Shown one piece after another: positions 1 to 48,969 of a DNA stretch of 53,268 bases. Within the stretch, counting starts at the first letter, position 1. The number at the start of each line of letters is the position of its first letter. The notes beneath the pieces are model-generated. The model did not search any database. It was not told the origin of the DNA and was given only the letters and a program-made list of their open reading frames with translations. This DNA comes from Escherichia phage Ecp_YSF. The DNA lies in sequence record OR327751.1, one strand, 5' to 3'. Position numbers and translations under genes: made by a program.

Positions 1-141
1 AAGTTCAGGCTTTCGTTTGGGTTACTCCTCATCCCGAAGTTAGCTGGATTCAAAATCCAGACTATGTTCCTATACACATGAAATATGCAAGTCGAGGGTT
101 CTTAATGTTCAAACATGATGCGAGCATTGAGCGGGTTTATA
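1..141. repeat. Left copy of direct terminal repeat; identical to 53128-53268
   Basis: Exact 141-nt identity with the last 141 nt of the window; repeat may extend beyond the window edge. Contains 7-bp hairpin CTGGATT-caa-AATCCAG at 44-60. Confidence 0.9.
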
Positions 142-5264: not shown

Positions 5265-6131
5265 ATGGCATTTGCTGCTCCTACACTGGCCTCGAACAAG
5301 ACTCCTTCTGCTGCACCATTACTGGAAGCGGGTGGTTATCCTGCTCGTGTTTGCCGTATTATCGACCTGGGCTTACAGCCTGGTTCTGCTAAATATCCTA
5401 CTCCGTCCTTGAAACTTCTGGTTACTTTCGAACTGCTCGACGAGTACATGAAAGAAGTTGACAGTGAAGGTAAAATGGTCATGGTCCAAGACCCAGACGA
5501 AGATGACGGCATCATGATGGCGAAGAATCTTGAAGACAAGCCGCGTTGGTTTGACTTTGAGTTTACCTATAATGCTGACGGCTTCATGGGTGAGAACTCC
5601 CACATCTACAAATTCGCTAAGGCGATTGATGCACTGGAAGTTAAACCTAATCTGGAACAAGGCATCCAGGGCCATCCTGCCAAGAACCTGCCGGACTGGT
5701 TGGGCGAACCCCTGATTGTTGGCATTGTTCAGTATACCAAGCAGTCAGGTAAGAATGCTGGCCAGGTTGCAAACAAAGTTGCTACCTTCTCTCCGATGAA
5801 ATCTAAGGAGAAGAAAGAAGCTAAAGCTCTGGTTAACCCGACTGTCTTCTTTGACATGTCTGAGCCGGACTTAGAAGTATTCAACAAACTGCCAGGTGGC
5901 GAATCTCCGTATGCAATCAAGAACCGTATTACTTCCGGTGTTGATTTCTACAAGACTAAGCTGTCTGCACTGTTAGGCGGTAAACCTGCCGATGAAGGCG
6001 CTGTACCGAATCAGGCTTCTGATGAAGAAGTTGATGCAGCTATGAAAGCTGAACTGGAAGCACAGGCTGCTGCAAAAGCACAGCGTGAAGCAGAAGGTGG
6101 CGCTGCTGGCGGTACGGGTATGCCGTTCTAA
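5265..6131 (+). CDS. Hypothetical protein in replication module; possible ssDNA-binding or recombination protein
   Basis: 288 aa, acidic and Ala-rich C-terminal region ending GMPF; sits between polymerase and exonuclease. Function is inferred from position only. Confidence 0.3.
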   Translation: MAFAAPTLASNKTPSAAPLLEAGGYPARVCRIIDLGLQPGSAKYPTPSLKLLVTFELLDEYMKEVDSEGKMVMVQDPDEDDGIMMAKNLEDKPRWFDFEFTYNADGFMGENSHIYKFAKAIDALEVKPNLEQGIQGHPAKNLPDWLGEPLIVGIVQYTKQSGKNAGQVANKVATFSPMKSKEKKEAKALVNPTVFFDMSEPDLEVFNKLPGGESPYAIKNRITSGVDFYKTKLSALLGGKPADEGAVPNQASDEEVDAAMKAELEAQAAAKAQREAEGGAAGGTGMPF

Positions 6132-6141
6132 TTATAAATAT

Positions 6142-6166
6142 GGCTCCTTCGGGAGCCTTTAATTTT
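6142..6166 (+). terminator. Rho-independent terminator-like hairpin
   Basis: GGCTCC-ttcg-GGAGCC stem-loop followed by TTTAATTTT. Confidence 0.55.
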
Positions 6167-6179
6167 GGAGCTTACCAAA

Positions 6180-8483: not shown

Positions 8484-9102
8484 GCGATTAGCTGTTATTC
8501 TCAATGGACCTCCTGGCTGCGGTAAAGATACCATTGCAAATAAGATTGTTGCTGCCGAGGAACCTTACTTTCTTGGCAGGCGCAAATTCATTAAACACCA
8601 GTTTAAGGATGCACTGTATGAGCATACTGCCAAACACTTTCAAGTTGATGTGGACAAGTTTATTCACTACGCTTCGGACCGTGACCTCAAAGACTCTATC
8701 TCCCTTGCAGGTCTTGGTGGCAGAACACCTCGTCAGGCTCTTATTCACGTTAGCGAAGATGTGTATAAGCCTCGCTACGGACAAGACTACTTCGGTAAGG
8801 TTGAAGCTGCTCGTGTTGAAGAACTCGCGGGGCGTATGGGTGGCATTATTAATGTCATTTATCCCGATGGCGGTTTTGGTGATGAAGTCGTTGCCATTGA
8901 GTCTGCTTATGATTTTGTCCTCATTGTGCGTTTGCATCGTGATGGTTTTGATTTCACGGGCGATTCTCGCAGATACATCAACCTCCCAGACACACCTACC
9001 CGCGTAACAGTGGATGAGCATCTAGTTGATGGTAAAGTGGGTGATTCTGTATTCAAAGTGTTCAACTGGATTGAACGCGTAACTTATCAAGTAGAGAAAT
9101 AA
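8464..9102 (+). CDS. P-loop NTPase, putative deoxynucleoside monophosphate kinase
   Basis: Walker A LNGPPGCGKDT near N-terminus; nucleotide-metabolism neighbourhood. GTG start at 8464 chosen to avoid a long overlap with the ligase. Confidence 0.45.
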   Translation: MRKVLIKRLAVILNGPPGCGKDTIANKIVAAEEPYFLGRRKFIKHQFKDALYEHTAKHFQVDVDKFIHYASDRDLKDSISLAGLGGRTPRQALIHVSEDVYKPRYGQDYFGKVEAARVEELAGRMGGIINVIYPDGGFGDEVVAIESAYDFVLIVRLHRDGFDFTGDSRRYINLPDTPTRVTVDEHLVDGKVGDSVFKVFNWIERVTYQVEK

Positions 9103-9104
9103 TC

Positions 9105-9626
9105 ATGTCTTGTATGACCCAAGTTGTTGCAGTTAAACGAGTGCATCCTAATGCGAAATTACCTGTGTACGCTACTTCTGGCGCTGCTGCTGCTGATGTT
9201 TGCACTATCTCCGATAGCACTGTTGTTATCAATCCCGGCTGCTCTGCTGTTTTCGATACTGGCCTCCAATTCGAGATTCCAGTTGGATACGAACTCAAAG
9301 TACATAGCCGTTCTGGTCATGGCTTTAAGTCTGGCATTCGCCTGGCAAACTGCACAGGAATTCTGGACTCCGATTATCGTGGCAATCTTATGGTTAAGTT
9401 GCACAACGACTCGGACACAGCCTTTGTGGTTCAGCCAGGTGAACGTATTTGTCAAGTGCAAGTTAGTAAAGCTACTCAACACCATTTCGTCGAAGTTGAC
9501 CGCTTGAATGCAACTGGTCGTGGTGAAGGTGGGTTTGGCTCAACTGGTCGTGTGGAACTCGGTCAACACGAAAGACCACATATTCCAGAAGGCTTGACAG
9601 TCCACAATCACAGTATTGCCAAGTAA
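9105..9626 (+). CDS. dut: dUTP diphosphatase (trimeric dUTPase)
   Basis: Motifs SRSGHGFKSG, GILDSDYRGNL, PGERICQV and C-terminal RGEGGFGSTG. Confidence 0.9.
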   Translation: MSCMTQVVAVKRVHPNAKLPVYATSGAAAADVCTISDSTVVINPGCSAVFDTGLQFEIPVGYELKVHSRSGHGFKSGIRLANCTGILDSDYRGNLMVKLHNDSDTAFVVQPGERICQVQVSKATQHHFVEVDRLNATGRGEGGFGSTGRVELGQHERPHIPEGLTVHNHSIAK

Positions 9627-9665
9627 TATTCGACATTCTCAGTAACCAATTGGAACCTATCTGAA

Positions 9666-9995
9666 ATGAAACTGTCCTCACCTGTTGTAGTAAATAACCG
9701 CAAAGTTAAATTTGCATATCTAAAGTCTAATGTCACCTCCACTGGTGGCGGGACTTATCTCACCCGTGCACTTGCAGTTCGCAACGAAACAGGTGCGGAT
9801 GTTATCGTTTTCATGCTTCCTCATGGTGAAAACACAATCAAGAACGTCGAACGTATCAAGCGTGGGCGCGAAGATTTAATGTCGGCTGTTAAGCCGCTGA
9901 TACTACCATTTAAGATTGTGGTGGTTGTTGGTTCTACCCAAGCATATCTGGAAGATTTCTATAAAGATATGGCCTGGAGCGATATTAAATATTAA
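9666..9995 (+). CDS. Hypothetical protein (109 aa)
   Basis: ATG-initiated ORF with no recognisable motif. Confidence 0.45.
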   Translation: MKLSSPVVVNNRKVKFAYLKSNVTSTGGGTYLTRALAVRNETGADVIVFMLPHGENTIKNVERIKRGREDLMSAVKPLILPFKIVVVVGSTQAYLEDFYKDMAWSDIKY

Positions 9996-10011
9996 GCGAC
10001 ACGCGTAACTA

Positions 10012-10040
10012 GGGAGGCTATCTGGCCTCCTATCTTATTC
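10012..10040 (+). terminator. Terminator-like hairpin between replication and packaging modules
   Basis: GGAGGC-tatctg-GCCTCC then TATCTTATTC; enclosed by a longer-range pairing AAGCGAC (about 9995) / GTCGCTT (about 10044). Confidence 0.45.
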
Positions 10041-10050
10041 GGAGTCGCTT

Positions 10051-10236
10051 ATGCGCACAATACAATGTCCTAACTGCCATTATGAAATTGCAGAAGATGA
10101 TTTCATAACGCAGCAATGTCCTATCTGTGATTCATACATGCCACTAAACCGCCTGTACTTAAAGGCCGATTCTGGTTTAGGCAGCATCATTCGCATCAAT
10201 CCCGTGCAAACTCAGCCATTAGTGGATTGTGATTAA
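10051..10236 (+). CDS. Small zinc-ribbon protein (61 aa)
   Basis: CPNCHYE ... CPICDS (two CxxC pairs); immediately upstream of terminase. Confidence 0.5.
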   Translation: MRTIQCPNCHYEIAEDDFITQQCPICDSYMPLNRLYLKADSGLGSIIRINPVQTQPLVDCD

Positions 10237-12274
10237 AAACAAAGAGAACGAATCAATGTCAAAGACTGATGACCTCGGACCGGAGTTTAATGATACAGTA
10301 GCCTCGTATCTTGCCAAGCACTACGGTGACGTATTAAAAGTCTCAAGAGAAAGATTCTGTATTCTATCTTTGCCATTGCTCCGTCGATATATTTCAGAAA
10401 ATACTGCAATAGTTGACAGCTATGAAGAACAAATTCAAGCAGAGTTAGAAGGCCAGGGTCTTGAAAACGATGCTGTATTGCGTTCCGTTTTCAGAGCACA
10501 ACTTGAGCGTCTTCGCTCTGGCGACAAGAAAGACTCGACTGCCTATGCAGATGAGTTGAAGAAAGGTATTCAAGCAGGTGTTACTGACCGTGTTGCAGGT
10601 TCCACATTAGAGGAGCCAAACTCGGAGCATGATAACACCGAGGAACTTGTAGACAAGATTCTGCATGACCCACATAACGTGGACCCAACTGTAATCCCTG
10701 CCAAGGTTGCAGAACGTGTTCGCAAAATCTTGATGAAAAGTTTCGAAGCCTTTGGTAAATGGCAGTTCCATATTCAGATGGGATTTCCATTTCAAGCACA
10801 AGACTTTCATGATGTAATATTCAGTGTTGGTCAGAAGGTTGTTGATGGTGAGATTGACCGCTTAATAGTGACCATTCCTCCACGACACTCTAAGACTCAG
10901 CTTATGAGTATTGCATTGCCCTTGTATTCATTTTGCCACAATGAATCGAGCCATAACATTATCACCTCGTATGCAGAAGACGTTGTTCTTGAATCGAGTG
11001 GTTACATCCGTGCTGTAATGATGGACCCACTGTTCCAACGAATATTCCCGAAGGTGAGAATCGACCCTAACAAACGTTCACTTGAACGCTGGGGTACAAC
11101 CAAAGCTGGAGTTATGCACGCAGTACCTACTGGTGGTAAGCTAACTGGTAAAGGTGCTGGACTTCTTGTTGCAAAATATTCCGGCTGTTTCGTGGTGGAT
11201 GACGTTATCAAGCCGAAAGATGCCTACTCTGACACAGTTCGAGCAGAAATCAACGACCGATTTGATAACACCTTTATGTCACGTCTTGCCAACGATGGTT
11301 GCATAACTGATTCGTACGGAAACCAAATTAAGTGTGCCCGTACACCAATGGTTATCATCATGCAGCGAGTTCATGACCAGGATTTAGTTGGTTACATACT
11401 CCGTGGTGGCTCTTCTGATAAATACCATTATCTCAATATCCCAGCGATTATTGAGAAAGGAGTTGGAAGTGCTGAGTGGTATGATAAGTTAATCAAGAAG
11501 CAGAACTACACTCATGCTATTCCCATTCTGTATAATTTGAACAGGAAGGAAGAGAAGTCTGCATTATGGCCTTCACGTAAGAGCTTAGAATCCCTGGAGG
11601 CAATGAAAGAGTCTAACCCATACACATACAATTCACAGTATGCTGGCGACCCATCTGCACAAGGCCACGGCCTTATCAAAGAAGATTGGTGGCAAGAGTA
11701 TGAGCCAGACGTTTTCGACAGAAGTCGCATAGTCAGAAGTTTTATTACAGCGGATACGGCATCAACTGCCAAATCCTATTCTGATTATTCGGTCCTTAAG
11801 CATTGGGGCGTGACTAAAGAGCGTGATGTTTATTGTTTAGATATTATGCTCGGTAAGTTTGAAACTCCAGAACTCAAGACTGCTATCATCGACTTCTGGA
11901 ACAAATGCAACAAGTTGGACTTGAAGTGTGTAGGCTGTATTCCTCGTGCATTGTACATGGAAGACAAGTCTGCCGGACAATTCTTGAACCAACAATTTAT
12001 CAGAGATGGGAGTGTCCGAGTTTTACCATTGCCTCGTGATGGGATTAATGGTAATGACAAGGTAACTCGATTCCTTAACGCAATCCCATATTTCTCACAA
12101 AAGAGAATATTCTTCCCTGCTGGTCATGAACACATCGACCACGTTAGACGTGAAATACTTGGATTCACTTCTTTGGGTAGTGGTACTGGACACGACGATT
12201 GTGTCGATAACGTTTCAGATATGGTTGCAATCGAATTCTCAGGCCCAAGTGCCAACTACTCCGCATGGATGTAA
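10229..12274 (+). CDS. Terminase large subunit
   Basis: ATPase motifs IPPRHSKTQ (Walker A-like) and GCFVVDD (Walker B); C-terminal nuclease-like region with ITADTAST and GHDDCVD. Start ambiguous (GTG 10229 or ATG 10256). Long N-terminal extension of about 190 aa. Confidence 0.75.
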   Translation: MIKNKENESMSKTDDLGPEFNDTVASYLAKHYGDVLKVSRERFCILSLPLLRRYISENTAIVDSYEEQIQAELEGQGLENDAVLRSVFRAQLERLRSGDKKDSTAYADELKKGIQAGVTDRVAGSTLEEPNSEHDNTEELVDKILHDPHNVDPTVIPAKVAERVRKILMKSFEAFGKWQFHIQMGFPFQAQDFHDVIFSVGQKVVDGEIDRLIVTIPPRHSKTQLMSIALPLYSFCHNESSHNIITSYAEDVVLESSGYIRAVMMDPLFQRIFPKVRIDPNKRSLERWGTTKAGVMHAVPTGGKLTGKGAGLLVAKYSGCFVVDDVIKPKDAYSDTVRAEINDRFDNTFMSRLANDGCITDSYGNQIKCARTPMVIIMQRVHDQDLVGYILRGGSSDKYHYLNIPAIIEKGVGSAEWYDKLIKKQNYTHAIPILYNLNRKEEKSALWPSRKSLESLEAMKESNPYTYNSQYAGDPSAQGHGLIKEDWWQEYEPDVFDRSRIVRSFITADTASTAKSYSDYSVLKHWGVTKERDVYCLDIMLGKFETPELKTAIIDFWNKCNKLDLKCVGCIPRALYMEDKSAGQFLNQQFIRDGSVRVLPLPRDGINGNDKVTRFLNAIPYFSQKRIFFPAGHEHIDHVRREILGFTSLGSGTGHDDCVDNVSDMVAIEFSGPSANYSAWM

Positions 12275-12489
12275 ATATGGCGGTTATCACTCGTTTAGAT
12301 GCCCGCTCACGCAAGAACAACTCCTTCCAGATTCAAGATTTGGAAGGAAACATTTTATGTGTGATTGAGGCAGTTTCTACCACAGAGAGCGACTGTGTTA
12401 AGTTAAAGCACGAGTCAAATCTGCGACTCCACACCTCCGACAACATTCAAATTGTTAAGGGTAATGGAACTATTCTAAGGAAGAAATAA
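12265..12489 (+). CDS. Hypothetical protein (74 aa)
   Basis: ATG overlaps terminase stop; no motif. Confidence 0.35.
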   Translation: MDVNMAVITRLDARSRKNNSFQIQDLEGNILCVIEAVSTTESDCVKLKHESNLRLHTSDNIQIVKGNGTILRKK

Positions 12490-13805
12490 TGACTTCCAAG
12501 AAGAAAAACAATCTTTCTGTTAAAGTTGCAGATGGGTTAGAAAACCTCGTAACAGGGTTGGGCGGTCAGGCAGATAAGTCCACTTTTAACCAGTGGACTT
12601 TCTCAAACAAGAACGCGAACTATCGCGAACTTATGAACCGCTTCCGTGAGGACTGGGTTGCACAGAAAGTGTGTACCGTCATTCCTCAGGACATGACGCG
12701 TAAGTGGCGACATATTGATACCGAAGAAGGACGCAAAGCGGATAAGAAACTTCGTATCCGTAAGCTGTTCCGTGAAGCATATCAATGGGCCAGATTGTAT
12801 GGTACTTCATTTGTTCTGCTCGACCTGAAAGGTACGGGCAAACTTGATACACCATTGCGACTGGATAACTTGAAGACTGGATGTATTAAATCCATGAGAG
12901 TTATTGACCGCTCGCGCTTATTTGCCGCAGGGACTATGGTTCTGGACCCTATGAGTCCTCACTATGGTTTGCCAGAGTATTACACTTTGGCTGGATATCC
13001 CGGCTATATCCACTACACTCGTTTTCTTCGGTTCGAGGGTACTGAACTGCCGCTGTTCGAATTCCAACGTAACATGTGGTATTCCGATTCGGTACTTATT
13101 CCACTGCTGAAAACGATTGACCAATTCTACACAACTGCCGCTGCTGCTGCCAGCCTTGCCCAAGAAGCCACCATTGATGTGGTAACTGTTGAAGGCTTAC
13201 AATCTCTGCTTACATCACCGGAAGGTGAAGCTGCTGTGATGAAGCGCTTCAAACTTATGAAGCTGGCAAAGAGTATTTATAACGTCTTAATTCTCGACAA
13301 CACTGAGAAGTATGACACCAAGTCAATTGCACTATCTGGTGTGAAAGATTTGATTTGGGAATACTTAAAGATAGTTGCTGCCGCAGTTGGTATTCCGGCT
13401 ACACGTTTCCTTTCTGCATCTCCAGACGGTATGAACGCTACGGGCGAATCTGACCTCGTAAACTATATCGACTTGTTGACAGGCTTGCAGACTTCTGTGT
13501 TCGACCCTCGTTTAGATGTGGTAGACAAGATTGTCCAGGCGCACTTTGGCATCGAAGAATATGACTACGAATGGTTAGATATCTTCCCTGAATCCAATGT
13601 TGAGAAAGCGAAGCGAGCTAAAGATTTGGCATTCGCTGTTGACCTGCTGGTTAACAATGGCACTATAACTACCGAAGTTGCAAACGAAGTCATGTTCCAT
13701 TCGGGCGTGTTCGGAACTTGTGACCTTGGCAAGCCAAATCCTAATCCTCCTAACATCCAAAAGGGTAACGCAAGTGAAGCAAAACCAAAACCTGGTTCAG
13801 CTTAA
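12489..13805 (+). CDS. Portal protein
   Basis: 438-aa ORF directly after terminase and before head genes; composition typical of portal proteins. Assigned by position and size, not by a specific motif. Confidence 0.6.
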   Translation: MTSKKKNNLSVKVADGLENLVTGLGGQADKSTFNQWTFSNKNANYRELMNRFREDWVAQKVCTVIPQDMTRKWRHIDTEEGRKADKKLRIRKLFREAYQWARLYGTSFVLLDLKGTGKLDTPLRLDNLKTGCIKSMRVIDRSRLFAAGTMVLDPMSPHYGLPEYYTLAGYPGYIHYTRFLRFEGTELPLFEFQRNMWYSDSVLIPLLKTIDQFYTTAAAAASLAQEATIDVVTVEGLQSLLTSPEGEAAVMKRFKLMKLAKSIYNVLILDNTEKYDTKSIALSGVKDLIWEYLKIVAAAVGIPATRFLSASPDGMNATGESDLVNYIDLLTGLQTSVFDPRLDVVDKIVQAHFGIEEYDYEWLDIFPESNVEKAKRAKDLAFAVDLLVNNGTITTEVANEVMFHSGVFGTCDLGKPNPNPPNIQKGNASEAKPKPGSA

Positions 13806-15669: not shown

Positions 15670-16677
15670 ATGCCTAAGATGATTAAACTGGCGGACGGTT
15701 CTGAATTTGAACTGAACGACGCTATCACCCGTATTCAGGATTCTGGCACTGTTGTCCTGAATGACGACGATGCAGTATTCTTTCAACGCCAGCTTGAGTT
15801 CATTGAAGCTCAAACTTACGACACTCTGTATCCAGAACTGGAAGCTCGTGCTGCTTTCGGTGTGGACACCACTGGTGGCGCTGGCGTAAACACTCTGACC
15901 TACCGTTCCTACAACCATGTTGGCAAAGCCCAGGTAATTAACGCCCGTGCAACCGACCTGCCGAAGTCCAGCATTTCTGGTAAAGAATACAGCATCCCTG
16001 TTAAATCAGTTGGTACTGCATTCGACTACGATATTGACGAAGTAGCGTCTGCTGCTGTTACTGGCCTCCCGCTGGAAACTCGTAAAGCGAATGCTGCTAT
16101 TCGTGGTTACGAGCAGTATGTTAACTCTGCTGCATGGTACGGCGATAAAGCTAACGGCTTTGTTGGCTTCTTCGAAAACCCAGACATTACCAAAGCAACT
16201 GTTGCTCAGGGTGCTGGTGGTTCTACCAAGTGGGCCGAGAAGACCCCGACCGAAGTTATTGCCGACCTGACTGCTGCTGTGTCTGCAATGTATGCTTCTA
16301 CTCTGAAAATTATGCGCCCGGATGAAATCTGGATGCCTGTTGAGCATGAGCAGTACATCTTCAACACTGCACGTTCTGAACAGTCTGATAAGACGATTGG
16401 TCAGTTCTTCATTGACAACAACCAGTTCATCAACTCCCGCGATAAAATCAAGGGTCTGAACGCAATCAAAGGTCACGGCGATTCTGGCTCCGATTGCTTC
16501 GTTGTTGTTTGCCGCAATGCAATGGGCAACCGTACTTTCCGTCTGCGTGAGCCTCTGCCACTGACCTGGCAACCGGTACAGCTTCATGGTCTGGTTTATG
16601 AAGTTCCTGGCCGTGGTCGTTTCGCTGGCTTCCAAGCGATGTACCCGGCAGCAATCTCCATCAACTCCGGCATCTGA
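15670..16677 (+). CDS. Major capsid protein
   Basis: About 335 aa, directly after scaffold and decoration genes. ATG at 15670 preferred over the track's 15637 alternative start. Confidence 0.7.
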   Translation: MPKMIKLADGSEFELNDAITRIQDSGTVVLNDDDAVFFQRQLEFIEAQTYDTLYPELEARAAFGVDTTGGAGVNTLTYRSYNHVGKAQVINARATDLPKSSISGKEYSIPVKSVGTAFDYDIDEVASAAVTGLPLETRKANAAIRGYEQYVNSAAWYGDKANGFVGFFENPDITKATVAQGAGGSTKWAEKTPTEVIADLTAAVSAMYASTLKIMRPDEIWMPVEHEQYIFNTARSEQSDKTIGQFFIDNNQFINSRDKIKGLNAIKGHGDSGSDCFVVVCRNAMGNRTFRLREPLPLTWQPVQLHGLVYEVPGRGRFAGFQAMYPAAISINSGI

Positions 16678-37030: not shown

Positions 37031-37052
37031 GATATTAGTTGGTTGTGAATTG
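37031..37052 (+). promoter_or_regulatory. Conserved phage motif copy a (candidate phage-RNAP promoter)
   Basis: GATATTAGTTGGTTGTGAATTG; matches consensus CTGAAACATTAGTTGGATGTGAA; about 65 nt upstream of RNAP start. Confidence 0.4.
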
Positions 37053-37115
37053 TGTAATGGCTACGCTATTATAATCCGTTTCAGTTAAATCATACACAAT
37101 CTTGGAGACTTACAA

Positions 37116-39056
37116 ATGATTACTATCACCACTCAAACTATCAAATCTGTTGTTCCTGCTATCACTGCTCTGGTATACCGTGCCAAAGAGAAGCAGAACT
37201 ATATGCAGCCTCAGACTTGTGCTATTGCTGCCCTAGCCATATTCAAGATGATGACGTCTTTCACTCGTGATGACGTTGTTCCTGCCATTGCGATGGTTGA
37301 GCTGGCTTCTGCTTCTATTGCTGATGCCAACCGCTACAACAACGATTTGAAAGCAATGCACTATGTTGACCCAGCTATCAACCTCATTGGTTTGGCTAAG
37401 CACTTTGGCTTCATCACCATGAACGAAGACAAGTCATTCCAGCAAACTGACACATGGGTTGAACTGGTTACAACCAAAGACACAGCAGTGCCATTCACTG
37501 AGCGTGTTACATCTGAATCTCGTCGCAAGCCTTTCGTTAAAGGTGGCAAAGTTAAGCCATCCAAAACTCTGAAAGCTGCAATCGAATTCCTGCAAGATAC
37601 TGAGTACCATGTGGAGACTGAGATGGTTCGCATCATCCAGTCCATGCTTGAGCAACGTACTTATGGTGGCTTGCAGATGCCAGAAGCAATCCAAACTGAA
37701 CTCCATGTTTGGAACAATGCTGTAGCAATGATGAATCAGGATAAGCTGTATTCTGACTACTTTGCTGATAACCGTGGTCGTCTGTATCATGTAGCATGTG
37801 CTGGTCCTAACCCACAATCCTCTGACTTTGCTCGTTGCTTGTATTCTCACAATGTTGAGAACATCGTTAAGAAGTTTAACGAAGATGGTTCTACTACCAT
37901 TGCATACAACATGTTCATGGCAGAGCTGGAAGATATTTCCGGTGGTGAATGGTGCAGTGCTAAGCGTTTAACTTATGTTGCTCAGAATCCAGCTGGTTCA
38001 CTTGCTCGCATGATGAACATGCCTAAAGCTGAGCGTCCTTCTAAGCCATTCACTTATGTTCGTCTGGCTCTGGATTGGTTCAAGTTTGAGACTACAGGTG
38101 AATGCGATTCTCGTGTAGGCTTTGGCTTAGATGCTAAATGTTCTGGTACTCAATATCTGGCATTCATTGCTGGTAACATGGAAATGGCTCGTGCAACAGG
38201 TCTGGTTGATTCTGAGACTAAAGCATCTGACCCATACCAGTTGAGTCTTCGTGAACTGTTGAAGCTGCTGGACAAGTCTTCAATGAAACCATCTCCTGAA
38301 ATTATGGATGAATTCTTGAATCCGAAAGCTGGTCGTAAGTTTATCAAAACTCCATACATGGCTATCCAATATGGTGGTGGTAAAGCTGCACTAACTGGTT
38401 CTTCTGACTTTATCTCCTACATGACAGAAGCTCTCCAGATTCCTATGGAGAAAGCTGAGGCATTTGCTGAACTGTGTGTAGAAGCAATCCATAACGCATT
38501 GGGTGCTAAGATTAACATGTTCATTGAGAAAGCTGCTGATGCTGCATACAACCGTTGTGTTGAACTTGGTAAAGAGTACATCACATACCGTCACACTGAT
38601 GGTCAGGTTGTAATGAAGCCTTGCTTCCCATCTCGTGAAATCTGTGAGGCATTCAGCATTCGTGTTGACTCCCAAACTCGTGTTATCTTTGGTCAGATTC
38701 AGGAGAATAAGCCTTGGACCATTCGTGAATCCAATCCAACTAAAGAAGAATTCAAGCGTACTTTCGTTGTTAACTACATTCAAGGTATTGACGCACTGGT
38801 TGCTCGTACTGTTGCAGTTAAAGCTAAAGAAGCTGGTCTTCGTGGCTTTACTTCAATTCACGATTGTTTCCGTTGCTGCTTAGCTGATGCTCCACGTATG
38901 ATGGAAGTTATTCGTGCAGCATATGTTGAAATCTTCGTAACCAACAATCAATTCGAGAATCTGTCTAAGCAACTCGGTGGCATTCAGATGTATCATGAGA
39001 ACATCGTAACCGAAGAGCTTCTGATGAGCGAACACGCTTACTACTTCTGTCAATAA
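37116..39056 (+). CDS. Single-subunit DNA-dependent RNA polymerase (T7-like catalytic core, compact 646 aa)
   Basis: Motif A-like LDAKCSGTQYLAF; motif B-like RKFIKTPYMAIQYGGGKA; motif C-like FTSIHDCFRC; RBS GGAGAC before ATG. Confidence 0.75.
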   Translation: MITITTQTIKSVVPAITALVYRAKEKQNYMQPQTCAIAALAIFKMMTSFTRDDVVPAIAMVELASASIADANRYNNDLKAMHYVDPAINLIGLAKHFGFITMNEDKSFQQTDTWVELVTTKDTAVPFTERVTSESRRKPFVKGGKVKPSKTLKAAIEFLQDTEYHVETEMVRIIQSMLEQRTYGGLQMPEAIQTELHVWNNAVAMMNQDKLYSDYFADNRGRLYHVACAGPNPQSSDFARCLYSHNVENIVKKFNEDGSTTIAYNMFMAELEDISGGEWCSAKRLTYVAQNPAGSLARMMNMPKAERPSKPFTYVRLALDWFKFETTGECDSRVGFGLDAKCSGTQYLAFIAGNMEMARATGLVDSETKASDPYQLSLRELLKLLDKSSMKPSPEIMDEFLNPKAGRKFIKTPYMAIQYGGGKAALTGSSDFISYMTEALQIPMEKAEAFAELCVEAIHNALGAKINMFIEKAADAAYNRCVELGKEYITYRHTDGQVVMKPCFPSREICEAFSIRVDSQTRVIFGQIQENKPWTIRESNPTKEEFKRTFVVNYIQGIDALVARTVAVKAKEAGLRGFTSIHDCFRCCLADAPRMMEVIRAAYVEIFVTNNQFENLSKQLGGIQMYHENIVTEELLMSEHAYYFCQ

Positions 39057-39073
39057 CATTAATTGGGTCAAGG

Positions 39074-39298
39074 ATGACCACAAACTTGGAGACTACAATG
39101 AATACCATGCAAATCAATCAAATCGAAAACTGTTTCAATCCTCATCACACCTGTGACATGAGTGATTTATCTCGTCCTACGGTGGAGGAGACTAAAGACT
39201 TCTTAGAATTGTTATCAGAATATAAGCAAGAGTCGCATGTATTATTGCACGCATTCTTGCATAATTCTGGATTCTTTGATACAGAAATACCGTTCTGA
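39074..39298 (+). CDS. Hypothetical small acidic protein (74 aa)
   Basis: ATG-initiated ORF after RNAP; in-frame ATG at 39098 with GGAG upstream is an alternative. Confidence 0.4.
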   Translation: MTTNLETTMNTMQINQIENCFNPHHTCDMSDLSRPTVEETKDFLELLSEYKQESHVLLHAFLHNSGFFDTEIPF

Positions 39299-39303
39299 TA
39301 CTT

Positions 39304-39328
39304 GGGAGCTTCGGCTCCCTATTTTTGT
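39304..39328 (+). terminator. Rho-independent terminator
   Basis: GGGAGC-ttcg-GCTCCC followed by TATTTTTGTTCT. Confidence 0.75.
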
Positions 39329-39367
39329 TCTAATTAATCTTAGAGCTGGCTTCAATATTGTAGCCAG

Positions 39368-39392
39368 TTGTAACATTAGTTGGATGTGAAGT
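39368..39392 (+). promoter_or_regulatory. Conserved phage motif copy b
   Basis: TGTAACATTAGTTGGATGTGAAGTA. Confidence 0.4.
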
Positions 39393-39599
39393 AACAGAAT
39401 ACGGAGAAGTATTCCGCATGTCATGTTGAAATCATTCTAGAAACATTTCAGCATGTCAACTAAACATACAGCGTTGTAATGATGTGGCAATCATTGAACT
39501 CCCTGTCTTTGGCCGGACAAAGTTCCAGCAACCATGTGTGAAGTAGGAATATCATTCGAAACTGTTCTTCAAATAAACATGACTTATCCCTAAAGAAGC

Positions 39600-40320
39600 T
39601 GGGACAGCTCATGTAGTACCAGCATGTTCAATTGTGACAATATTGCTCCATCTCCTATTATAAAGGCCCACCCACAAGCCGGGAGATAACTTTGGTAATA
39701 TTGGAACTTTTGGACATGCTTCTTTCTTTCAATCAGAATTCGAAAGAAGAGAAGAGTCGGAGCAAAGCCGCGAAACTAATCCCGTAGCCCGCCCCGATTT
39801 TGAGCAACAAATATTGTGACAATTTTGTCGCAGTATGGCATGTAAATATTGCTACAAATTGGCATGTTGGAATGTGGCAGAATTGTTAGAGGACTAATCC
39901 CCTCGAAGATACAATCGTCTACCAATCTGGCATGTTATTTTTGTAACAGTATTTGTGCCAATTTCGCATGTATTAGCTGTATCAGTATTAACCCAATATT
40001 CTTGCAACCCGCATGAATACTGGCTTCCAGCCAAGCGAAGGCTTTATCATCGCATGTAAATATTGTGACAATATTGGGATAAAACCCTTTATTTAATTAG
40101 TTTTATTATGCTGTACATGGTCGGTTTTCCGTACCTGCTTGCTCCAATCTTAATGTGCCAAATACGTTAAGTATGGGAGTAAACCTGTAATTAATGGTGC
40201 ATGTTTAATTGTGACAAAATTCGTCTATTTGGCAGATGAATTAGTTGCAATTAAGCATGTTCATTTATCATTAGTTGCATGTGAATAAGACCAAATCTCT
40301 GTAAATTCTGCCGAAATTGT
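39600..40320. repeat. Cluster of operator-like palindromes (AATATTGTGACAATATT family), each preceded by GCATGT
   Basis: Copies near 39616, 39810, 39836, 39925, 40050 (perfect 17-bp palindrome at about 40063-40079), 40197; related AATATTGCTACAATATT at about 36567. Confidence 0.7.
40265..40290 (+). promoter_or_regulatory. Conserved phage motif copy c
   Basis: TTATCATTAGTTGCATGTGAATAAGA. Confidence 0.4.
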
Positions 40321-40484
40321 GTGACAGATTTTAGAGAGATTATGTCTCCAAGCTAATCATTGCAGTTTTTCGACACTTTGTGTGTCACATATAGCCTGTG
40401 AAAAACGTGTGGTATATTGCTGGATTGCGACGCGCCCACCAGACTAGGAAGTCACTGACGGCGGCACACACAGGAATACTATAT

Positions 40485-40555
40485 AACTCCCTACAACTTT
40501 AAGGTGGATTGAGGTAAGACAAGACCTCCACAATCGTTCTGTAGGGAGTTCTTTT
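40485..40555 (+). promoter_or_regulatory. Long-range stem enclosing an inner hairpin, then U-tract, 8 nt before the RBS of the first small gene
   Basis: AACTCCCTACA (40485-40495) pairs with TGTAGGGAGTT (40540-40550); inner GTGGA/GAGG...CCTC/CAC; followed by CTTTT and AGGAG-ATG. Confidence 0.45.
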
Positions 40556-40571
40556 AACTCAGGAGAATAAA

Positions 40572-40790: not shown

Positions 40791-40833
40791 TGCGTGGGAG
40801 GGGGAGTAAACCCTCCAAATTTGGAGAGCAGAA

Positions 40834-41064: not shown

Positions 41065-41066
41065 TC

Positions 41067-41500: not shown

Positions 41501-41502
41501 TA

Positions 41503-42481: not shown

Positions 42482-42544
42482 TTTCCTCAACCATTCTTAT
42501 AATGAGAGTGGTTGCTGAATATTATTAATTAACTTGGAGCATTT

Positions 42545-48147: not shown

Positions 48148-48324
48148 ATGATTAAAGTTCTGGAAAAAGATAACGTAACCTTCGCACGTCAGTGTGGAGG
48201 ATGTTTCTCTGTAGTATCTTACGTGTTCTCTGACTTAAAGATGTACACAGGAAAGAATGACCGAGGATACTTCGCATACAGATTCATTACTTGTCCTGTT
48301 TGCAAGAAGAGTATTCGGCATTAG
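48148..48324 (+). CDS. Small Cys-containing protein (58 aa)
   Basis: Motif copy g abuts the ATG; C-terminal CPVCKK; the track's longer ORF (48055) would contain the motif. Confidence 0.35.
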   Translation: MIKVLEKDNVTFARQCGGCFSVVSYVFSDLKMYTGKNDRGYFAYRFITCPVCKKSIRH

Positions 48325-48337
48325 TTGGAATTGAAAC
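48317..48337 (+). promoter_or_regulatory. Conserved phage motif copy h
   Basis: CGGCATTAGTTGGAATTGAAA; overlaps stop codon of the upstream ORF. Confidence 0.35.
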
Positions 48338-48352
48338 AACATCAGATAAGAG

Positions 48353-48417
48353 CTTTGTAACTAGGTAGTCCGTCTGGTACCAAGACGTGTGAGAACGTTC
48401 GATTCGTTCTACAAAGC
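48353..48417 (+). ncRNA. tRNA-like structured element (acceptor-like stem and canonical T-arm; reduced D region)
   Basis: CTTTGTA pairs with TACAAAG (extendable to 11 bp); hairpin CGTCT-GGTACCA-AGACG; T-arm GAACG-TTCGATT-CGTTC; followed by CTCTTTTCG. Confidence 0.4.
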
Positions 48418-48969
48418 TCTTTTCGATGGAATGTTTCCATCATATACATTTATCTTTTAACATAGGCCAAAGGGCCGGAATACTTATTCGCAGAAAAGCT
48501 ATTCACTTGTTATAGGCGATGTATTGGGATGAATTAGAACTAAATAAGCAAGCTGTTAGGGCTGAATAATTAGAGGGTTGTGCCTCATGCTTATGTTAGT
48601 CATTCGAAAATAGGTTTGTGCCACAAGCTGCTGGTGCTCTGAGGAAGTCGGACAAACAGGGCTTAGAGTGGCATAATCCGCACAAAACCGCGCCACCAGC
48701 TATGCCAAAGCAGGTGGATTGGGTGAATGTATTGGGAAGGGTTGCAAAGCCTCTGCGAGCACGGTATCGCGTATAATAAGTGACGTCTGCGCTGCGTGTA
48801 TCGCACCCTAACGGGAGTAACCCTTCGCCAATGCAGTTATCCAGAATTGACACAAACGGTAGGCAGTGGCCCGATTTTCGGCCTTCCTGTGCTACCCTGT
48901 GGCCTGTTTCATGGGCCAAAAGATGAGAAGAGAAGTCACAAACCCCGAATCGAAAATTGGAGAGTTCCT

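What the first reader, a model, noticed from the sequence alone, without database searches (positions are those of the whole stretch)
9995..10050. Recurrent architecture: long-range stem enclosing an inner hairpin just upstream of a gene start (possible RNase III-type processing sites or attenuators)
Three places share the design. 9995-10050 has AAGCGAC/GTCGCTT enclosing GGAGGC-loop-GCCTCC before ATG 10051. 40485-40555 has an 11-bp stem enclosing an inner helix, then CTTTT and the RBS of gene 40572. 48349-48425 has an 11-bp stem enclosing two hairpins, then a U-tract. T7-like phages process early polycistronic RNA at such structures.
Basis: partly seen in the sequence, partly recalled or inferred. 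Interest (0 to 1): 0.45.

Follow-up and report, generated by a model that had tools for sequence, protein, structure and literature searches.

The report
Conserved intergenic RNA hairpins in phage
Three folded RNA signals sit at the borders between gene blocks of a phiEcoM-GJ1-like coliphage; two are clearly conserved, and they look like ordinary transcript punctuation (termination, cutting or translation control), with one unusual tRNA-like insert.

Summary
The window is a complete phiEcoM-GJ1-like genome (Chaseviridae; myovirus with a T7-like RNA polymerase), with all genes on the + strand. All three structures exist at the stated coordinates and fold better than shuffles (z -5.3, -3.3, -4.2).

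They are not copies of one element. A covariance model of site 1 does not hit sites 2 or 3.

- **Site 1 (9993-10052):** a 22-bp, three-tier hairpin conserved across Cleopatravirinae, with compensatory changes. Its lower stem pairs the UAA of the last DNA-metabolism gene with the 8 nt ending in the A of the next AUG, burying the ribosome-binding site. Its top is a terminator-type GC hairpin, annotated as a terminator in phage SA91KD.
- **Site 3 (48333-48441):** a 23-bp stem directly after a putative phage promoter, with 10 covarying pairs. It encloses a tRNA-like domain that two relatives replace with unrelated sequence.
- **Site 2:** conserved in sequence, but without covariation support.

Sites 1 and 3 have the same geometry as T7 RNase III sites. 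That makes RNase III cleavage plausible but unproven. A leaky terminator plus a stop-to-start translational clamp explains site 1 at least as well.

Verdict: real features, a new member of a known kind, moderate interest.

In passing, I found a tmRNA-like tag-coding RNA at 50.9 kb that is shared with Ackermannviridae phages.

The parts
9993..10052 (+). Site 1: three-tier RNA hairpin (22 bp) that fills the whole gap between gene 9666-9995 and gene 10051-10236
   Evidence: Fold -29 kcal/mol, z -5.29. Conserved in 12 Cleopatravirinae sequences: 96.5% of cells paired, 5 pairs changed on both sides, 0/500 shuffles reach this.
9993..10000 (+). Site 1 outer stem, 5' arm UAAGCGAC; it includes the stop codon UAA (9993-9995) of the upstream gene
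   Evidence: The core UAAGCG is invariant in 12 of 13 lineages. L011 replaces the stem with GCAUACG/CGUAUGC.
10044..10051 (+). Site 1 outer stem, 3' arm GUCGCUUA; it ends on the A of the start codon at 10051. The ribosome-binding GGAG (10041-10044) is directly 5' of it and partly paired.
   Evidence: The energy needed to open the ribosome-binding site is 12.4 kcal/mol, rank 4 of 84 genes (mean 7.5, sd 3.1).
10005..10038 (+). Site 1 middle helix (GUAA 10005-10008 with UUAU 10035-10038): an A-rich 5' side against the U-rich tail of the inner hairpin
   Evidence: 3 of its 4 pairs change on both sides among relatives (helix 2). Sequences.
10012..10031 (+). Site 1 inner GC-rich hairpin GGGAGGCU-AUCU-GGCCUCCU, followed by the tail UAUCUUAUU (terminator-type)
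   Evidence: Top hit of the terminator scan. The homologous stretch is annotated as a rho-independent terminator in SA91KD.
40485..40550 (+). Site 2: 11-bp outer stem enclosing the GUGGA/UCCAC (40504-40508 with 40527-40531) and GGU/ACC helices. It lies in the leader of the first small gene after the 1.5-kb noncoding region.
   Evidence: Fold -25.4 kcal/mol, z -3.25. The sequence is highly conserved, but only the ACUCCC/GGGAGU core is kept in TH23, MLP1, TH29 and 4HA13. Covariation is not above shuffles (56/500).
40551..40571 (+). Site 2 U-rich tract (CUUUU) and the ribosome-binding site AGGAG (40561-40565) of gene 40572-40790
   Evidence: This ribosome-binding site is not occluded (opening energy 5.9 kcal/mol, rank 55 of 84).
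48319..48335 (+). Putative phage-polymerase promoter motif CATTAGTTGGAATTGAA, directly upstream of site 3
   Evidence: Exact match to the motif. The homologous stretch is annotated 'putative phage promoter 5' in phiEcoM-GJ1. It is conserved in all relatives.
48333..48437 (+). Site 3: long stem made of 6+4+2+11 bp = 23 bp (48333-48338/48432-48437, 48340-48343/48425-48428, 48345-48346/48423-48424, 48348-48358/48411-48421) enclosing a three-way junction
   Evidence: On a MAFFT alignment of 10 sequences: 97.3% paired, 10 pairs changed on both sides (7 of them in the long stem), 0/500 shuffles reach this.
48360..48410 (+). Site 3 enclosed tRNA-like domain. It has a mini D-like hairpin with a conserved GG (48360-48369), a 5-bp arm with a 7-nt loop (48371-48387), and a T-arm GAACG-UUCGAUU-CGUUC (48393-48409; with one further A-U pair, 48392-48410) that stacks on the long stem.
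   Evidence: T-arm motif scan: 3 hits on the + strand, 0 on the - strand. Loop UUCRANU and the closing G-C pair are invariant, while the stem covaries. Faunus and Pel53 replace the domain with unrelated sequence. It is not a tRNA by ARAGORN or Rfam.
48425..48441 (+). Alternative local hairpin GAUGGAA-UGU-UUCCAUC. It competes with the base of the site 3 stem.
   Evidence: Present in the MFE folds of the window and several relatives. The sequence is invariant, so there is no covariation evidence.

Best explanation
These are three unrelated cis-acting structures in the sense-strand RNA. They punctuate the long same-strand transcripts of a phiEcoM-GJ1-like phage at the borders of its gene modules: the start of the small early genes (site 2), the early-to-DNA-metabolism border (site 3), and the DNA-metabolism-to-packaging border (site 1).

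Site 1, the given coordinates, is a 60-nt, 22-bp, three-tier hairpin that fills the whole intercistronic gap.
- Shown: its top is a terminator-type GC hairpin with a U/C-rich tail. Its base pairs the UAA stop codon region of the upstream gene with the last 8 nt up to the A of the next AUG. This buries the stretch between the ribosome-binding sequence and the start codon.
- Inferred: it acts as a leaky terminator or 3'-end-stabilising hairpin for the DNA-metabolism transcripts. On read-through RNA it keeps the first packaging cistron silent until the clamp is opened. Opening would come either from a ribosome terminating at the UAA inside the 5' arm (translational coupling) or from RNase III cutting the 22-bp helix.

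Site 3 is a 23-bp helix (27 bp in 4HA13) that starts where transcripts from the adjacent putative phage promoter should start. It encloses an exchangeable domain, which is tRNA-like in this phage. It is most likely an RNase III-type processing stem or 5'-leader stabiliser. After a cut, the conserved alternative hairpin at 48425-48441 could cap the new 5' end.

Site 2 is a conserved leader sequence whose drawn structure is unproven.

My sub-probabilities:
- Sites 1 and 3 are functional RNA structures: about 0.9.
- Site 1 masks the ribosome-binding site and couples translation: about 0.5.
- Site 1 causes some termination: about 0.4.
- RNase III cleaves site 3: about 0.5; site 1: about 0.35; site 2: about 0.15.
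For: Identity and context: the window is 97-98% identical to phiEcoM-GJ1-like phages, and all genes are on the + strand.

Stability: z-scores are -5.3, -3.25 and -4.2.

Site 1:
- The same three-tier hairpin is found in Carltongylesvirus, 4HA13, phiA050, Faunus and Loessnervirus.
- 96.5% of cells are paired, 5 pairs change on both sides, and 0/500 shuffles reach this; versions with the partner slid by 1-3 columns reach only 41-59% paired.
- L011 swaps the whole outer stem for GCAUACG/CGUAUGC, which still pairs.
- Many G-U pairs mean the fold works only on the + strand RNA.
- The stop-to-start clamp is kept in all 13 lineages.
- The energy to open the ribosome-binding site is 12.4 kcal/mol, rank 4 of 84.
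- The inner hairpin is predicted as a terminator both here and in SA91KD.

Site 3:
- 97.3% of cells are paired and 10 pairs change on both sides, on an alignment not fitted to the structure.
- The stem is continuous for 21 bp in 4HA13.
- The outer stem and flanks are kept while the insert is replaced in Faunus and Pel53.
- A promoter motif lies directly upstream.

Geometry: the ten T7 RNase III sites fold into the same lower-stem/loop/upper-stem design with 18-29 bp. E. coli RNase III needs about two helical turns, and coaxial stacks and internal loops are allowed (PMC1540722).

Promoters: good promoter motifs occur only between 37033 and 50254. The late genes therefore probably depend on read-through past site 1, which argues for a leaky signal rather than a strong stop.
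Against: - No RNA-end data exist for this phage family in the searchable library. Termination, cleavage and coupling are therefore all inferred.
- The U-tract of site 1 is interrupted in this lineage (UAUCUUAUU).
- Its upper stem is 8 bp. [quoted passage not shown]
- The outer-stem core UAAGCG/CGCUUA is invariant, so apart from L011 it gives no covariation. Part of it is constrained by the stop codon.
- The site 1 alignment used for counting was fitted to the model.
- Site 3's U-tract is absent in 4HA13, and its base can refold into a local hairpin.
- Site 2 shows no covariation; 4 of its 10 outer pairs are lost in four lineages without compensation.
- Late promoters of an unrecognised type could exist. 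The ICTV profile says the family's promoters are not identified.
Confidence: 0.6

Rival explanations
1. All three are RNase III processing sites in the T7 manner. Host RNase III cuts the polycistronic RNA there, leaving 3' hairpins that stabilise upstream messages and freeing downstream ribosome-binding sites.
For: The phage has a T7-like RNA polymerase. T7's ten sites have the same lower-stem/internal-loop/GC-upper-stem design and often lie just after promoters, or enclose one, as site 3 lies after its promoter. Site 1 has 22 bp and site 3 has 23-27 bp, which meets the two-helical-turn requirement. The conserved outer stems are not needed for termination. A cut would free the buried ribosome-binding site of gene 10051.
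Against: There is no cleavage evidence. There is no sequence relation to the T7 consensus GGCCUUUAUGAUU beyond a loose resemblance. Site 1's upper stem is only 8 bp. Site 2 keeps just 6-7 bp of its outer stem plus a 5-bp inner helix, separated by 8x8 unpaired bases, and shows no covariation. The proximal- and distal-box rules cannot be applied without knowing the cut site.
Confidence: 0.35
2. They are plain rho-independent terminators that end transcription units. The outer stems are only A-tract/U-tract extensions or incidental.
For: The site 1 inner hairpin is called a terminator by TransTermHP/WebGeSTer in SA91KD and by the scan here. All site 1 homologs keep a pyrimidine/U-rich tail. The middle helix is an A-rich 5' side paired to that tail. 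Sites 2 and 3 have U-rich runs right after their outer stems in most relatives. All three sit at module borders, where terminators are expected.
Against: No promoter motif lies between site 1 and the 26-kb late module, so an efficient stop would starve the late genes. Site 1's GC-containing outer stem is conserved from Escherichia phages to Erwinia phages, yet termination does not need it. The stems of sites 2 and 3 enclose 44-50 nt of structured RNA, unlike the simple terminators of the same genome (39304, 6142, 16683). 4HA13 has no U-tract at site 3. Site 2 lies between a promoter and the gene that promoter should express.
Confidence: 0.3
3. Site 3 is a small non-coding RNA gene of its own: the promoter at 48319-48335, a roughly 90-nt tRNA-like RNA, and a terminator formed by the long stem plus UUUU. 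It is not a signal that acts on neighbouring messages.
For: The promoter motif is immediately upstream. The T-arm has an invariant UUCRANU loop and closing G-C pair, a conserved GG sits in the D-like loop, and the arms covary. No ORF of at least 40 aa starts with ATG in the 460 nt that follow. The same genome carries a degenerate tRNA gene and a tmRNA-like RNA.
Against: Faunus and Pel53 keep the stem and flanks but replace the tRNA-like domain with unrelated sequence, so the conserved function lies in the stem. The domain has no CCA end and no conserved anticodon loop, and it is not recognised by ARAGORN or by the Rfam tRNA model. 4HA13 lacks the U-tract.
Confidence: 0.15
4. The structures are DNA-level signals (cruciforms or protein-binding palindromes, for example a packaging signal next to the terminase gene), or, for site 2, chance complementarity in a leader that is conserved for its sequence.
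For: Site 1 lies 178 nt upstream of the large terminase gene. Long-range stems as such are no more frequent than in shuffled sequence. Site 2 shows strong sequence conservation without covariation.
Against: Sites 1 and 3 keep pairing through G-U pairs, which would be A-C mismatches on the other strand. Compensatory changes preserve pairing rather than sequence. Model R1 scores 97 bits on the + strand against 19 bits on the - strand.
Confidence: 0.07

Closest known systems
Bacteriophage T7 RNase III processing sites (R0.3, R0.5, R1, R1.1, R1.3, R3.8, R4.7, R6.5, R13, R18.5)
   Same: Both are intercistronic composite hairpins on the sense RNA of a phage that uses a single-subunit RNA polymerase. 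Both have a lower stem, an internal loop and a GC-rich upper stem with a U-rich 3' side, about 20 bp in total. The T7 sites often lie just after a phage promoter, or enclose one in the hairpin loop, as site 3 lies just after its promoter, and one lies before the first early gene (R0.3, as site 2 does).
   Different: There is no shared sequence with the T7 consensus CAAGGUC...GGCCUUUAUGAUU. Site 1's upper stem is shorter (8 bp) and the helix is broken into three tiers. Its lower stem contains the stop codon and the start codon, which the T7 sites folded here do not. Site 3 caps the helix with a three-way junction. Cleavage is untested. The T7 site positions were recalled from memory and only checked by folding.
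Intrinsic (rho-independent) terminators, including T7 TE and Tphi
   Same: Both have a GC-rich hairpin followed by a U-rich tail, with an upstream A-rich stretch that pairs with that tail. Both sit at the end of a gene module. Site 1 is annotated this way in phage SA91KD.
   Different: The U-tract is interrupted. An extra conserved GC-containing outer stem reaches the next start codon. No promoter is recognisable downstream of site 1. Sites 2 and 3 enclose 44-50 nt of structured RNA instead of a 3-8-nt loop.
Hairpins that mask a ribosome-binding site and give translational coupling (for example the MS2 coat-replicase long-distance pairing; own knowledge)
   Same: The start region of the downstream cistron is base-paired to sequence that ribosomes translating or terminating on the upstream cistron must unwind. 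In site 1 the UAA lies inside the 5' arm and the AUG abuts the 3' arm.
   Different: Here the partner is the stop codon region itself, and a terminator-type hairpin sits between the two arms. Coupling has not been measured.
tRNA-like structures without decoding function (the tmRNA tRNA-like domain, bacterial YrlA RNAs, viral 3' tRNA-like structures; own knowledge)
   Same: The site 3 insert has a T-arm with a canonical UUCRANU loop and closing G-C pair. It stacks on an acceptor-like helix formed by distant 5' and 3' sequences. A GG-containing D-like loop and a 5-bp/7-nt arm are also present.
   Different: It has no CCA end or free acceptor end, its D-arm is reduced to 3 bp and 4 nt, and it has no U33 or conserved anticodon loop. 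It is not detected by ARAGORN or by Rfam RF00005 even at E<10. It is confined to Carltongylesvirus and 4HA13-like phages and is dispensable in Faunus and Pel53.

Membership tests
E. coli RNase III substrate | A double helix of about two turns (~22 bp), possibly built from coaxially stacked shorter helices (PMC1540722) | tested here: met
   Site 1 has 8+2+4+8 = 22 bp. Site 3 has 23 bp plus a 6-bp stacked arm, and a continuous 21+6 bp in 4HA13.
E. coli RNase III substrate | The same helix-length criterion, applied to site 2 | tested here: not met
   Site 2 has 11 bp in the window but only 6-7 bp conserved. Its inner 5+3 bp are separated from the outer stem by 8x8 unpaired bases. There is no covariation.
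E. coli RNase III substrate | Proximal-, middle- and distal-box base-pair determinants within 11 bp of the scissile bond, with no G-C pair at proximal-box positions 2 and 4 | tested here: inconclusive
   The rules were read. Without a mapped cut site the register is free. A/U-rich segments exist in both helices (site 1 middle helix; site 3 AAGAGCUUUGUA), so neither site is excluded.
E. coli RNase III substrate | RNase III-dependent cleavage in vitro or in vivo | not testable with these tools
   No transcript-end data for Chaseviridae are in the held literature.
T7-group RNase III site family (homology) | The shared sequence around the cut (upper stem CAAGGUC...GGCC, then UUUAUGAUU) | tested here: not met
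   The folded T7 sites were compared with sites 1-3. Only a loose resemblance exists at site 1 (GGCCUCCUAUCUUAUU). The comparison was by eye, not with a model.
Intrinsic terminator | A GC-rich stem with a short loop, directly followed by a U-rich run | tested here: met
   Site 1 inner hairpin: 8 pairs, 5 of them G-C, a 4-nt loop and the tail ATCTTATT; it is the first-listed hit of the scan. It is annotated as a terminator in SA91KD.
Intrinsic terminator | The same criterion, applied to the outer stems of sites 2 and 3 | tested here: inconclusive
   A U-run follows both stems in most relatives. However, the stems enclose 44-50 nt, the scan does not report them, and 4HA13 has no U-run at site 3.
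Intrinsic terminator | Release of transcripts at the site | not testable with these tools
   This needs in vitro transcription or Term-seq.
tRNA (for the site 3 insert) | A cloverleaf recognised by ARAGORN or Rfam RF00005 | tested here: not met
   ARAGORN finds 0 genes in the window and in 12 related loci. There is no tRNA match even at E<10 on 48300-48460.
tRNA-like structure (for the site 3 insert) | A T-arm: a 5-bp stem closed by a G-C pair with a UUCRANY loop, stacked on an acceptor-like helix | tested here: met
   It is one of only 3 such hairpins in the window, all on the + strand. The loop and closing pair are invariant, and one stem pair changes on both sides, C-G to U-A.
Any curated RNA family (Rfam 15) | A match at the gathering score | tested here: not met
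   0 matches in the whole window.

The most novel reading that the evidence does not exclude
Site 3 is a promoter-proximal excision cassette. RNase III cuts the 23-27-bp stem and releases a roughly 65-nt tRNA-like RNA, which has a T-arm and a D-loop GG 'elbow' but no CCA end and no anticodon. This RNA would belong to a wider set of translation-apparatus mimics carried by these phages. The others are the degenerate tRNA gene at 51.6 kb and the tmRNA-like tag-coding RNA at 50.9 kb that is shared with Ackermannviridae. Such RNAs might act on host tRNA- or ribosome-directed enzymes or defences.
Probability: 0.12. Interest if true: 0.7.

Novelty: new member of a known kind. Interest (0 to 1): 0.4.

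Why it matters
Chaseviridae combine a myovirus body with a T7-like RNA polymerase. According to the ICTV profile, their promoters are 'not yet identified', and I found no published data on their transcription programme.

The two conserved, covarying RNA structures lie exactly at the early/DNA-metabolism and DNA-metabolism/packaging borders. They give concrete, testable candidates for how one long same-strand transcript is divided into differently expressed blocks.

The stop-to-start clamp at site 1 predicts that expression of the first packaging cistron, and of the terminase gene that overlaps its end, depends on upstream translation or on RNA cutting. This matters for anyone engineering these therapeutic-candidate coliphages.

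By itself the finding is ordinary phage gene-expression punctuation, not a new mechanism.

Tried and rejected
- **Rfam.** A scan of the whole window at gathering scores gave no match. A scan of site 3 at E<10 gave only noise (SNORD36, CRISPR-DR7).
- **ARAGORN.** No tRNA or tmRNA in the window or in 12 related loci.
- **One repeated element?** Model R1 from site 1 finds every Cleopatravirinae homolog but nothing at sites 2 or 3, so I rejected the idea.
- **MAFFT plus RNAalifold on site 1.** The middle helix was misaligned and only local mini-hairpins came out. I replaced this with a model-guided alignment.
- **The phiEcoM-GJ1 genome paper.** It is not held, by PubMed id or by PMC id. The promoter motif was taken from the SA91KD and GJ1 record annotations instead.
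- **Transcriptome papers for Chaseviridae or Carltongylesvirus.** None found.
- **Small flanking proteins as queries for relatives.** This gave too few loci. Using the RNA polymerase and terminase as anchors worked.
- **Raw folding energy as evidence.** The three sites are not among the most stable 90-nt windows of the genome, so energy alone is not informative.
- **A DNA cruciform or antisense reading.** Rejected because of the G-U pairs and the strand asymmetry.
- **RNase P processing of the tRNA-like insert.** Considered and set aside. The acceptor-like helix continues fully paired for at least 11 bp and has no free 5' leader or CCA end (inference).
- **Flanking proteins.** They have no informative family. 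The downstream 61-aa protein is a zinc ribbon with only sub-threshold hits.
Full report
**What the window is.** Megablast of 9000-13000 gives 97-98% identity over the full length to Escherichia phages EcoM1, PO103-1, Bp7 and phiEcoM-GJ1. These belong to the family Chaseviridae, subfamily Cleopatravirinae, genus Carltongylesvirus. They are myoviruses that encode a T7-like single-subunit RNA polymerase, here at 37116-39056.

All long ORFs are on the + strand. The first ~110 nt recur at the end of the window (31-90 is found again at 53158). The window is therefore a whole, circularly assembled genome.

The ICTV profile states that promoters of the family 'have not yet been identified' and that transcription uses both host and phage polymerases (PMC12842549). 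No transcript-mapping study of these phages is in the searchable library.

**The observation.** All three places are as described.
- RNA folding gives -29.0 kcal/mol (z -5.29) for 9990-10055.
- It gives -25.4 kcal/mol (z -3.25) for 40480-40560.
- It gives -31.1 kcal/mol (z -4.18) for 48340-48430.

Two cautions apply. First, in a 90-nt sliding fold the genome mean is -19.5 +/- 4.9 kcal/mol, and many coding windows are as stable or more stable. Second, long-range perfect stems are not over-represented. Stems of at least 11 bp with a 20-80-nt spacer number 2 observed against 0.7 +/- 0.6 in dinucleotide shuffles. Stems of at least 8 bp number 54 against 47. What is unusual is that both stems of 11 bp or more lie in the 10.7% of the genome that is intergenic. 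Conservation has to carry the argument.

**Site 1 (9993-10052).** The fold has four parts:
- an outer stem UAAGCGAC/GUCGCUUA (9993-10000 with 10044-10051);
- a C-G/G-C step (10002-3 with 10040-1);
- a 4-bp A/U helix (10005-8 with 10035-8);
- an 8-bp GC-rich hairpin (10012-10031) with a tetraloop.

That is 22 bp in all. The U of the upstream stop codon UAA (9993-9995) pairs with the A of the downstream AUG (10051). The ribosome-binding GGAG (10041-10044) sits on the 3' strand.

Using the large terminase as an anchor, I fetched 14 IMG/VR loci with 60-100% protein identity and six GenBank relatives. The same three-tier hairpin is the MFE structure in ST32, Mangalitsa, SA91KD, MLP1, PYps3T, two metagenomic lineages, 4HA13, Aeromonas phage phiA050, Erwinia phage Faunus, and the Loessnervirus phages SNUABM_27 and Berlingot.

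Among these relatives:
- The middle helix changes completely but stays paired (GUAA/UUAU, CGAUUAA/UUAAUUG, CAAUUG/UAAUUG, CUAUUA/UAAUAG, AUUAAUU/AAUUAAU, CCGA/UUGG).
- The outer core UAAGCG/CGCUUA is invariant, except in L011, where it is replaced by GCAUACG/CGUAUGC, which covers the AUG.
- L010 has UGA as its stop codon, forming a G-U pair.

A covariance model built from five close sequences recovers all of these. On its alignment, 96.5% of cells are paired, 5 pairs change on both sides, and no shuffle out of 500 reaches the observed values. Versions with the partner slid by 1-3 columns reach only 41-59% paired. This alignment is fitted to the model, which favours the structure.

Several pairs are predominantly G-U, and the model scores 97 bits on the + strand against 19 bits on the - strand. 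The structure therefore belongs to the sense RNA, not to DNA or an antisense RNA. In the more distant terminase relatives L014 and L015 (60% identity) there is no hairpin directly before the ATG; the only stable one lies well upstream and does not reach it.

**What site 1 does.** Three readings fit, and they are not exclusive.

(i) Terminator. The inner hairpin with its tail UAUCUUAUU is listed first among the terminator-like hits of the scan. Its homolog is annotated as a rho-independent terminator in SA91KD. All homologs keep a U/C-rich tail. But the U-run is interrupted in this lineage. Good copies of the putative phage promoter motif CATTAGTTGGAWKTGAA occur only between 37033 and 50254. 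The 26-kb packaging and structural block after site 1 therefore seems to depend on read-through, and an efficient stop is unlikely.

(ii) Masking of the ribosome-binding site. Forcing positions -14 to +5 of gene 10051 to be single-stranded costs 12.4 kcal/mol. This is rank 4 of 84 genes (mean 7.5, sd 3.1), and the three higher values are at doubtful TTG starts or one other ATG. Because the stop codon lies inside the 5' arm, a ribosome terminating on the upstream gene must open the clamp. This is the classical design for translational coupling (own knowledge). The clamp is present in all 13 lineages.

(iii) RNase III. The helix has the two turns that the enzyme needs. Interrupted, coaxially stacked helices are acceptable, and internal loops limit cutting to one strand, which leaves a protective 3' hairpin (PMC1540722).

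To avoid arguing from memory, I fetched T7 and folded the intergenic regions around the ten RNase III positions that I recalled. Each one gives a lower stem of 4-10 bp, an internal loop and a GC-rich upper stem of 9-13 bp, followed by GGCCUUUAUGAUU-like sequence. Site 1 has the same geometry (for comparison, R4.7 is 10 bp / 3x3 loop / 10 bp). Its upper stem, however, is only 8 bp, and it has no real sequence match.

I rate coupling or masking at about 0.5, partial termination at about 0.4 and RNase III cutting at about 0.35.

**Site 3 (48333-48441).**
- GAAACA/UGUUUC (48333-8 with 48432-7);
- CAUC/GAUG;
- GA/UC;
- the 11-12-bp stem AAGAGCUUUGU(A) (48348-58 with 48411-21).

Together these make 23 bp. 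They enclose a 3-bp mini-hairpin, a 5-bp arm with a 7-nt loop, and a 6-bp arm with the loop UUCGAUU. An exact copy of the promoter motif ends at 48335. The homologous stretch is 'putative phage promoter 5' in the phiEcoM-GJ1 record. Transcripts from it would therefore begin with the 5' strand of the helix.

Homologs came from RNA-polymerase-anchored IMG/VR loci and from GenBank. A plain MAFFT alignment of 10 sequences gives 97.3% of cells paired. Ten pairs change on both sides: 7 in the long stem, 2 in the first arm and 1 in the T-like arm. No shuffle out of 500 reaches this, and slid controls give 39-47% paired. In 4HA13 the stem is a continuous 21 bp plus 6 bp, and the U-run is gone.

In Erwinia phage Faunus and in the record named Staphylococcus phage Pel53, the flanks and the outer stem are kept, with a compensating change (UGUA/UACA becomes UGG/CCA). 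The enclosed domain, however, is replaced by unrelated sequence. The conserved function therefore resides in the long helix and its flanks, and the insert is exchangeable.

A helix of this length is the best RNase III candidate of the three. The invariant alternative hairpin GAUGGAA-UGU-UUCCAUC (48425-48441) competes with the base of the stem. It could form only once the 5' strand is removed, and it would then cap the 5' end of the downstream RNA. That is inference.

Downstream of site 3, no ORF of at least 40 aa starts with ATG for about 460 nt.

**The insert of site 3.** Its second arm is a textbook T-arm: a 5-bp stem closed by G-C with the loop UUCGAUU. In relatives the loop is UUCAACU, UUCGACU or UUCGAAU, so only the positions that vary in tRNAs vary here. 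The stem pair next to the closing pair switches from C-G to U-A.

A scan for a 5-bp stem plus a TTCRANY loop finds only three such hairpins in the window, all on the + strand. My rough estimate of the chance expectation is below one per strand. A conserved GG sits in the D-like loop, and the arm stacks directly on the long stem.

It is nevertheless not a tRNA. It has no CCA end or free acceptor end, and its anticodon-like loop is not conserved. ARAGORN finds nothing, and the Rfam tRNA model gives no match even at E<10. The core pattern occurs only in the same phage group in IMG/VR. I call it a tRNA-like domain of unknown role.

**Site 2 (40485-40550).** It lies about 215 nt after a promoter-motif copy (40269) and 22 nt before the first small gene after the 1.5-kb noncoding region. 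This resembles the position of T7 R0.3 before gene 0.3.

The 44 enclosed bases are almost invariant in 47 phage records. The 11-bp outer stem, however, shrinks to ACUCCC/GGGAGU in TH23, MLP1, TH29 and 4HA13-like phages without compensation. On 11 sequences, covariation is not above shuffles (56/500 for the score, 133/500 for pairs changed on both sides).

The downstream ribosome-binding site is not occluded (opening energy 5.9 kcal/mol, rank 55 of 84). The element is functional as a sequence, but the drawn structure is unproven. The RNase III length criterion is not met in its conserved form.

**Are the three one kind of thing?** Not by descent. They share no sequence, and model R1 hits only site 1. 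Many other intergenic gaps of this genome also fold as an A/U-rich outer helix around a GC hairpin, for example 6117-6177, 42471-42536, 43433-43521, 44050-44119, 45406-45456 and 50772-50881. The 'architecture' is therefore the common look of this phage's intergenic hairpins.

What the three have in common is position. They mark the start of the early genes, the early/DNA-metabolism border and the DNA-metabolism/packaging border.

**Comparison and verdict.** The closest known systems are T7 RNase III sites, intrinsic terminators and coupling hairpins. The insert of site 3 resembles non-decoding tRNA-like structures.

Membership in 'RNase III substrate' is met on helix length for sites 1 and 3, not met for site 2, and untestable for the defining property, which is cleavage. 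Membership in 'intrinsic terminator' is met on sequence criteria for the site 1 inner hairpin only.

The finding is real for sites 1 and 3. It is a new member of a known kind, with moderate interest.

**Seen in passing.** The noncoding gap 50686-51204 holds a tmRNA-like coding piece. It reads AAAUAAAU GCA AAU GAU UCU GAA AUG CGA GUU GCG GCU UAA, which translates to ANDSEMRVAA-stop.

Rfam gives weak tmRNA matches there (alpha_tmRNA E = 4.9e-4 in Erwinia phage Y2). The roughly 140-nt block is conserved, with covarying hairpins and variant tags, in several other phages:
- Erwinia phage Y2: ANDNEMRAAA;
- Ackermannviridae phage PC3: ANDSEVLMAA;
- Ackermannviridae phage Magnus: ANDDVVLMAA;
- Klebsiella phage VLCpiS13b: ANEEVYLAVA.

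ARAGORN finds no tmRNA in the window or in the loci fetched from these four phages. This may deserve its own study.

Noticed in passing
window 50925-51062 (inside the noncoding gap 50686-51204): A tmRNA-like coding piece. It reads ...AAAUAAAU GCA AAU GAU UCU GAA AUG CGA GUU GCG GCU UAA, which is ANDSEMRVAA-stop: the same length and the same AND...AA pattern as the E. coli SsrA tag (own knowledge). Two conserved hairpins follow it. Rfam matches are weak (tmRNA_permuted 20.5 bits here; alpha_tmRNA E = 4.9e-4 in Erwinia phage Y2). The ~140-nt block is conserved, with variant tags, in Y2 (ANDNEMRAAA), Ackermannviridae phages PC3 and Magnus (ANDSEVLMAA, ANDDVVLMAA) and Klebsiella phage VLCpiS13b (ANEEVYLAVA). 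ARAGORN reports no tmRNA, and I found no tRNA-like acceptor domain.
   Followed up: partly
window ~51585-51680: A degenerate tRNA gene. It has the acceptor GGACGAG/CUCGUCC followed by ACCA, the T-arm GUUGG-UUCGAAU-CCAAC, and an extra ~30 nt. Rfam tRNA scores 27.9 bits, just under the gathering score of 29, and ARAGORN misses it in the window. In SA91KD, ARAGORN reports a 92-nt tRNA-Ser(gct) at 15895-15986, at about the corresponding position; the ST32 paper reports a 95-bp tRNA-Arg.
   Followed up: partly
window 52833-52849: A third tRNA T-arm-like hairpin, ACUGG-UUCGAUU-CCAGU, on the + strand. Its context was not examined.
   Followed up: no
window 50784-50802 with 50847-50865: A 19-bp stem (89% complementary) enclosing 44 nt of structured RNA, about 70 nt upstream of the tmRNA-like tag region. 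It has the same 'long stem around a structured insert' design as site 3.
   Followed up: no
window 37033-50270, + strand: Ten copies of the putative phage-polymerase promoter motif (C)TGAAACATTAGTTGGAWKTGRA, all on the + strand, at 37033, 39374, 40269, 43505, 44102, 47991, 48131, 48319, 49922 and 50254. There is no good copy in 1-36000, so the DNA-metabolism and late genes have no recognisable promoter after 50254.
   Followed up: partly
window 48131-48150: The promoter motif at 48131-48147 ends one base before the ATG at 48148 of a 58-aa zinc-ribbon-like gene (48148-48324). This implies a leaderless or nearly leaderless message. The mechanical ORF list starts this gene at GTG 48055 instead.
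   Followed up: no
window 39300-40570: A 1.5-kb noncoding stretch after the RNA polymerase gene. It is dense in repeats of GCATGT and (TTGTGAC)AATATTG and in long palindromes (for example 40183-40283, -40.7 kcal/mol). It is also present in SA91KD. It may be an origin or a cluster of regulatory binding sites.
   Followed up: no
window 45406-45456: An intergenic hairpin, UAAUUAA..GAGGCCAUUCC-loop-GAGUGGCCUC..UUAAUUA. Its 3' side (GAGUGGCCUCGAUUAAUUAU) resembles the T7 RNase III site consensus (GAGUGGCCUUUAUGAUUAU) more closely than any of the three sites in the finding.
   Followed up: no
window 1-141 and 53158-53268: The start of the window is repeated at its end (31-90 recurs at 53158). The window is a circularly assembled complete genome with an overlap of about 110 nt, not a fragment.
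   Followed up: yes
relatives of window 50690-51210 (4HA13, Pel53, DE15, TH53 and others): The tmRNA-like/tRNA-like noncoding region varies in length between phages: matches are split into 2-3 pieces spanning 640-840 nt for a 521-nt query. It carries an HNH endonuclease gene in 4HA13 and Pel53. This suggests insertions of homing-endonuclease or intron type.
   Followed up: no
GenBank PP952070.1 (loci L044, L055): The record named 'Staphylococcus phage Pel53' (host Staphylococcus hyicus) is a Chaseviridae genome about 91% identical to these coliphages across the regions compared. The host label looks doubtful.
   Followed up: no
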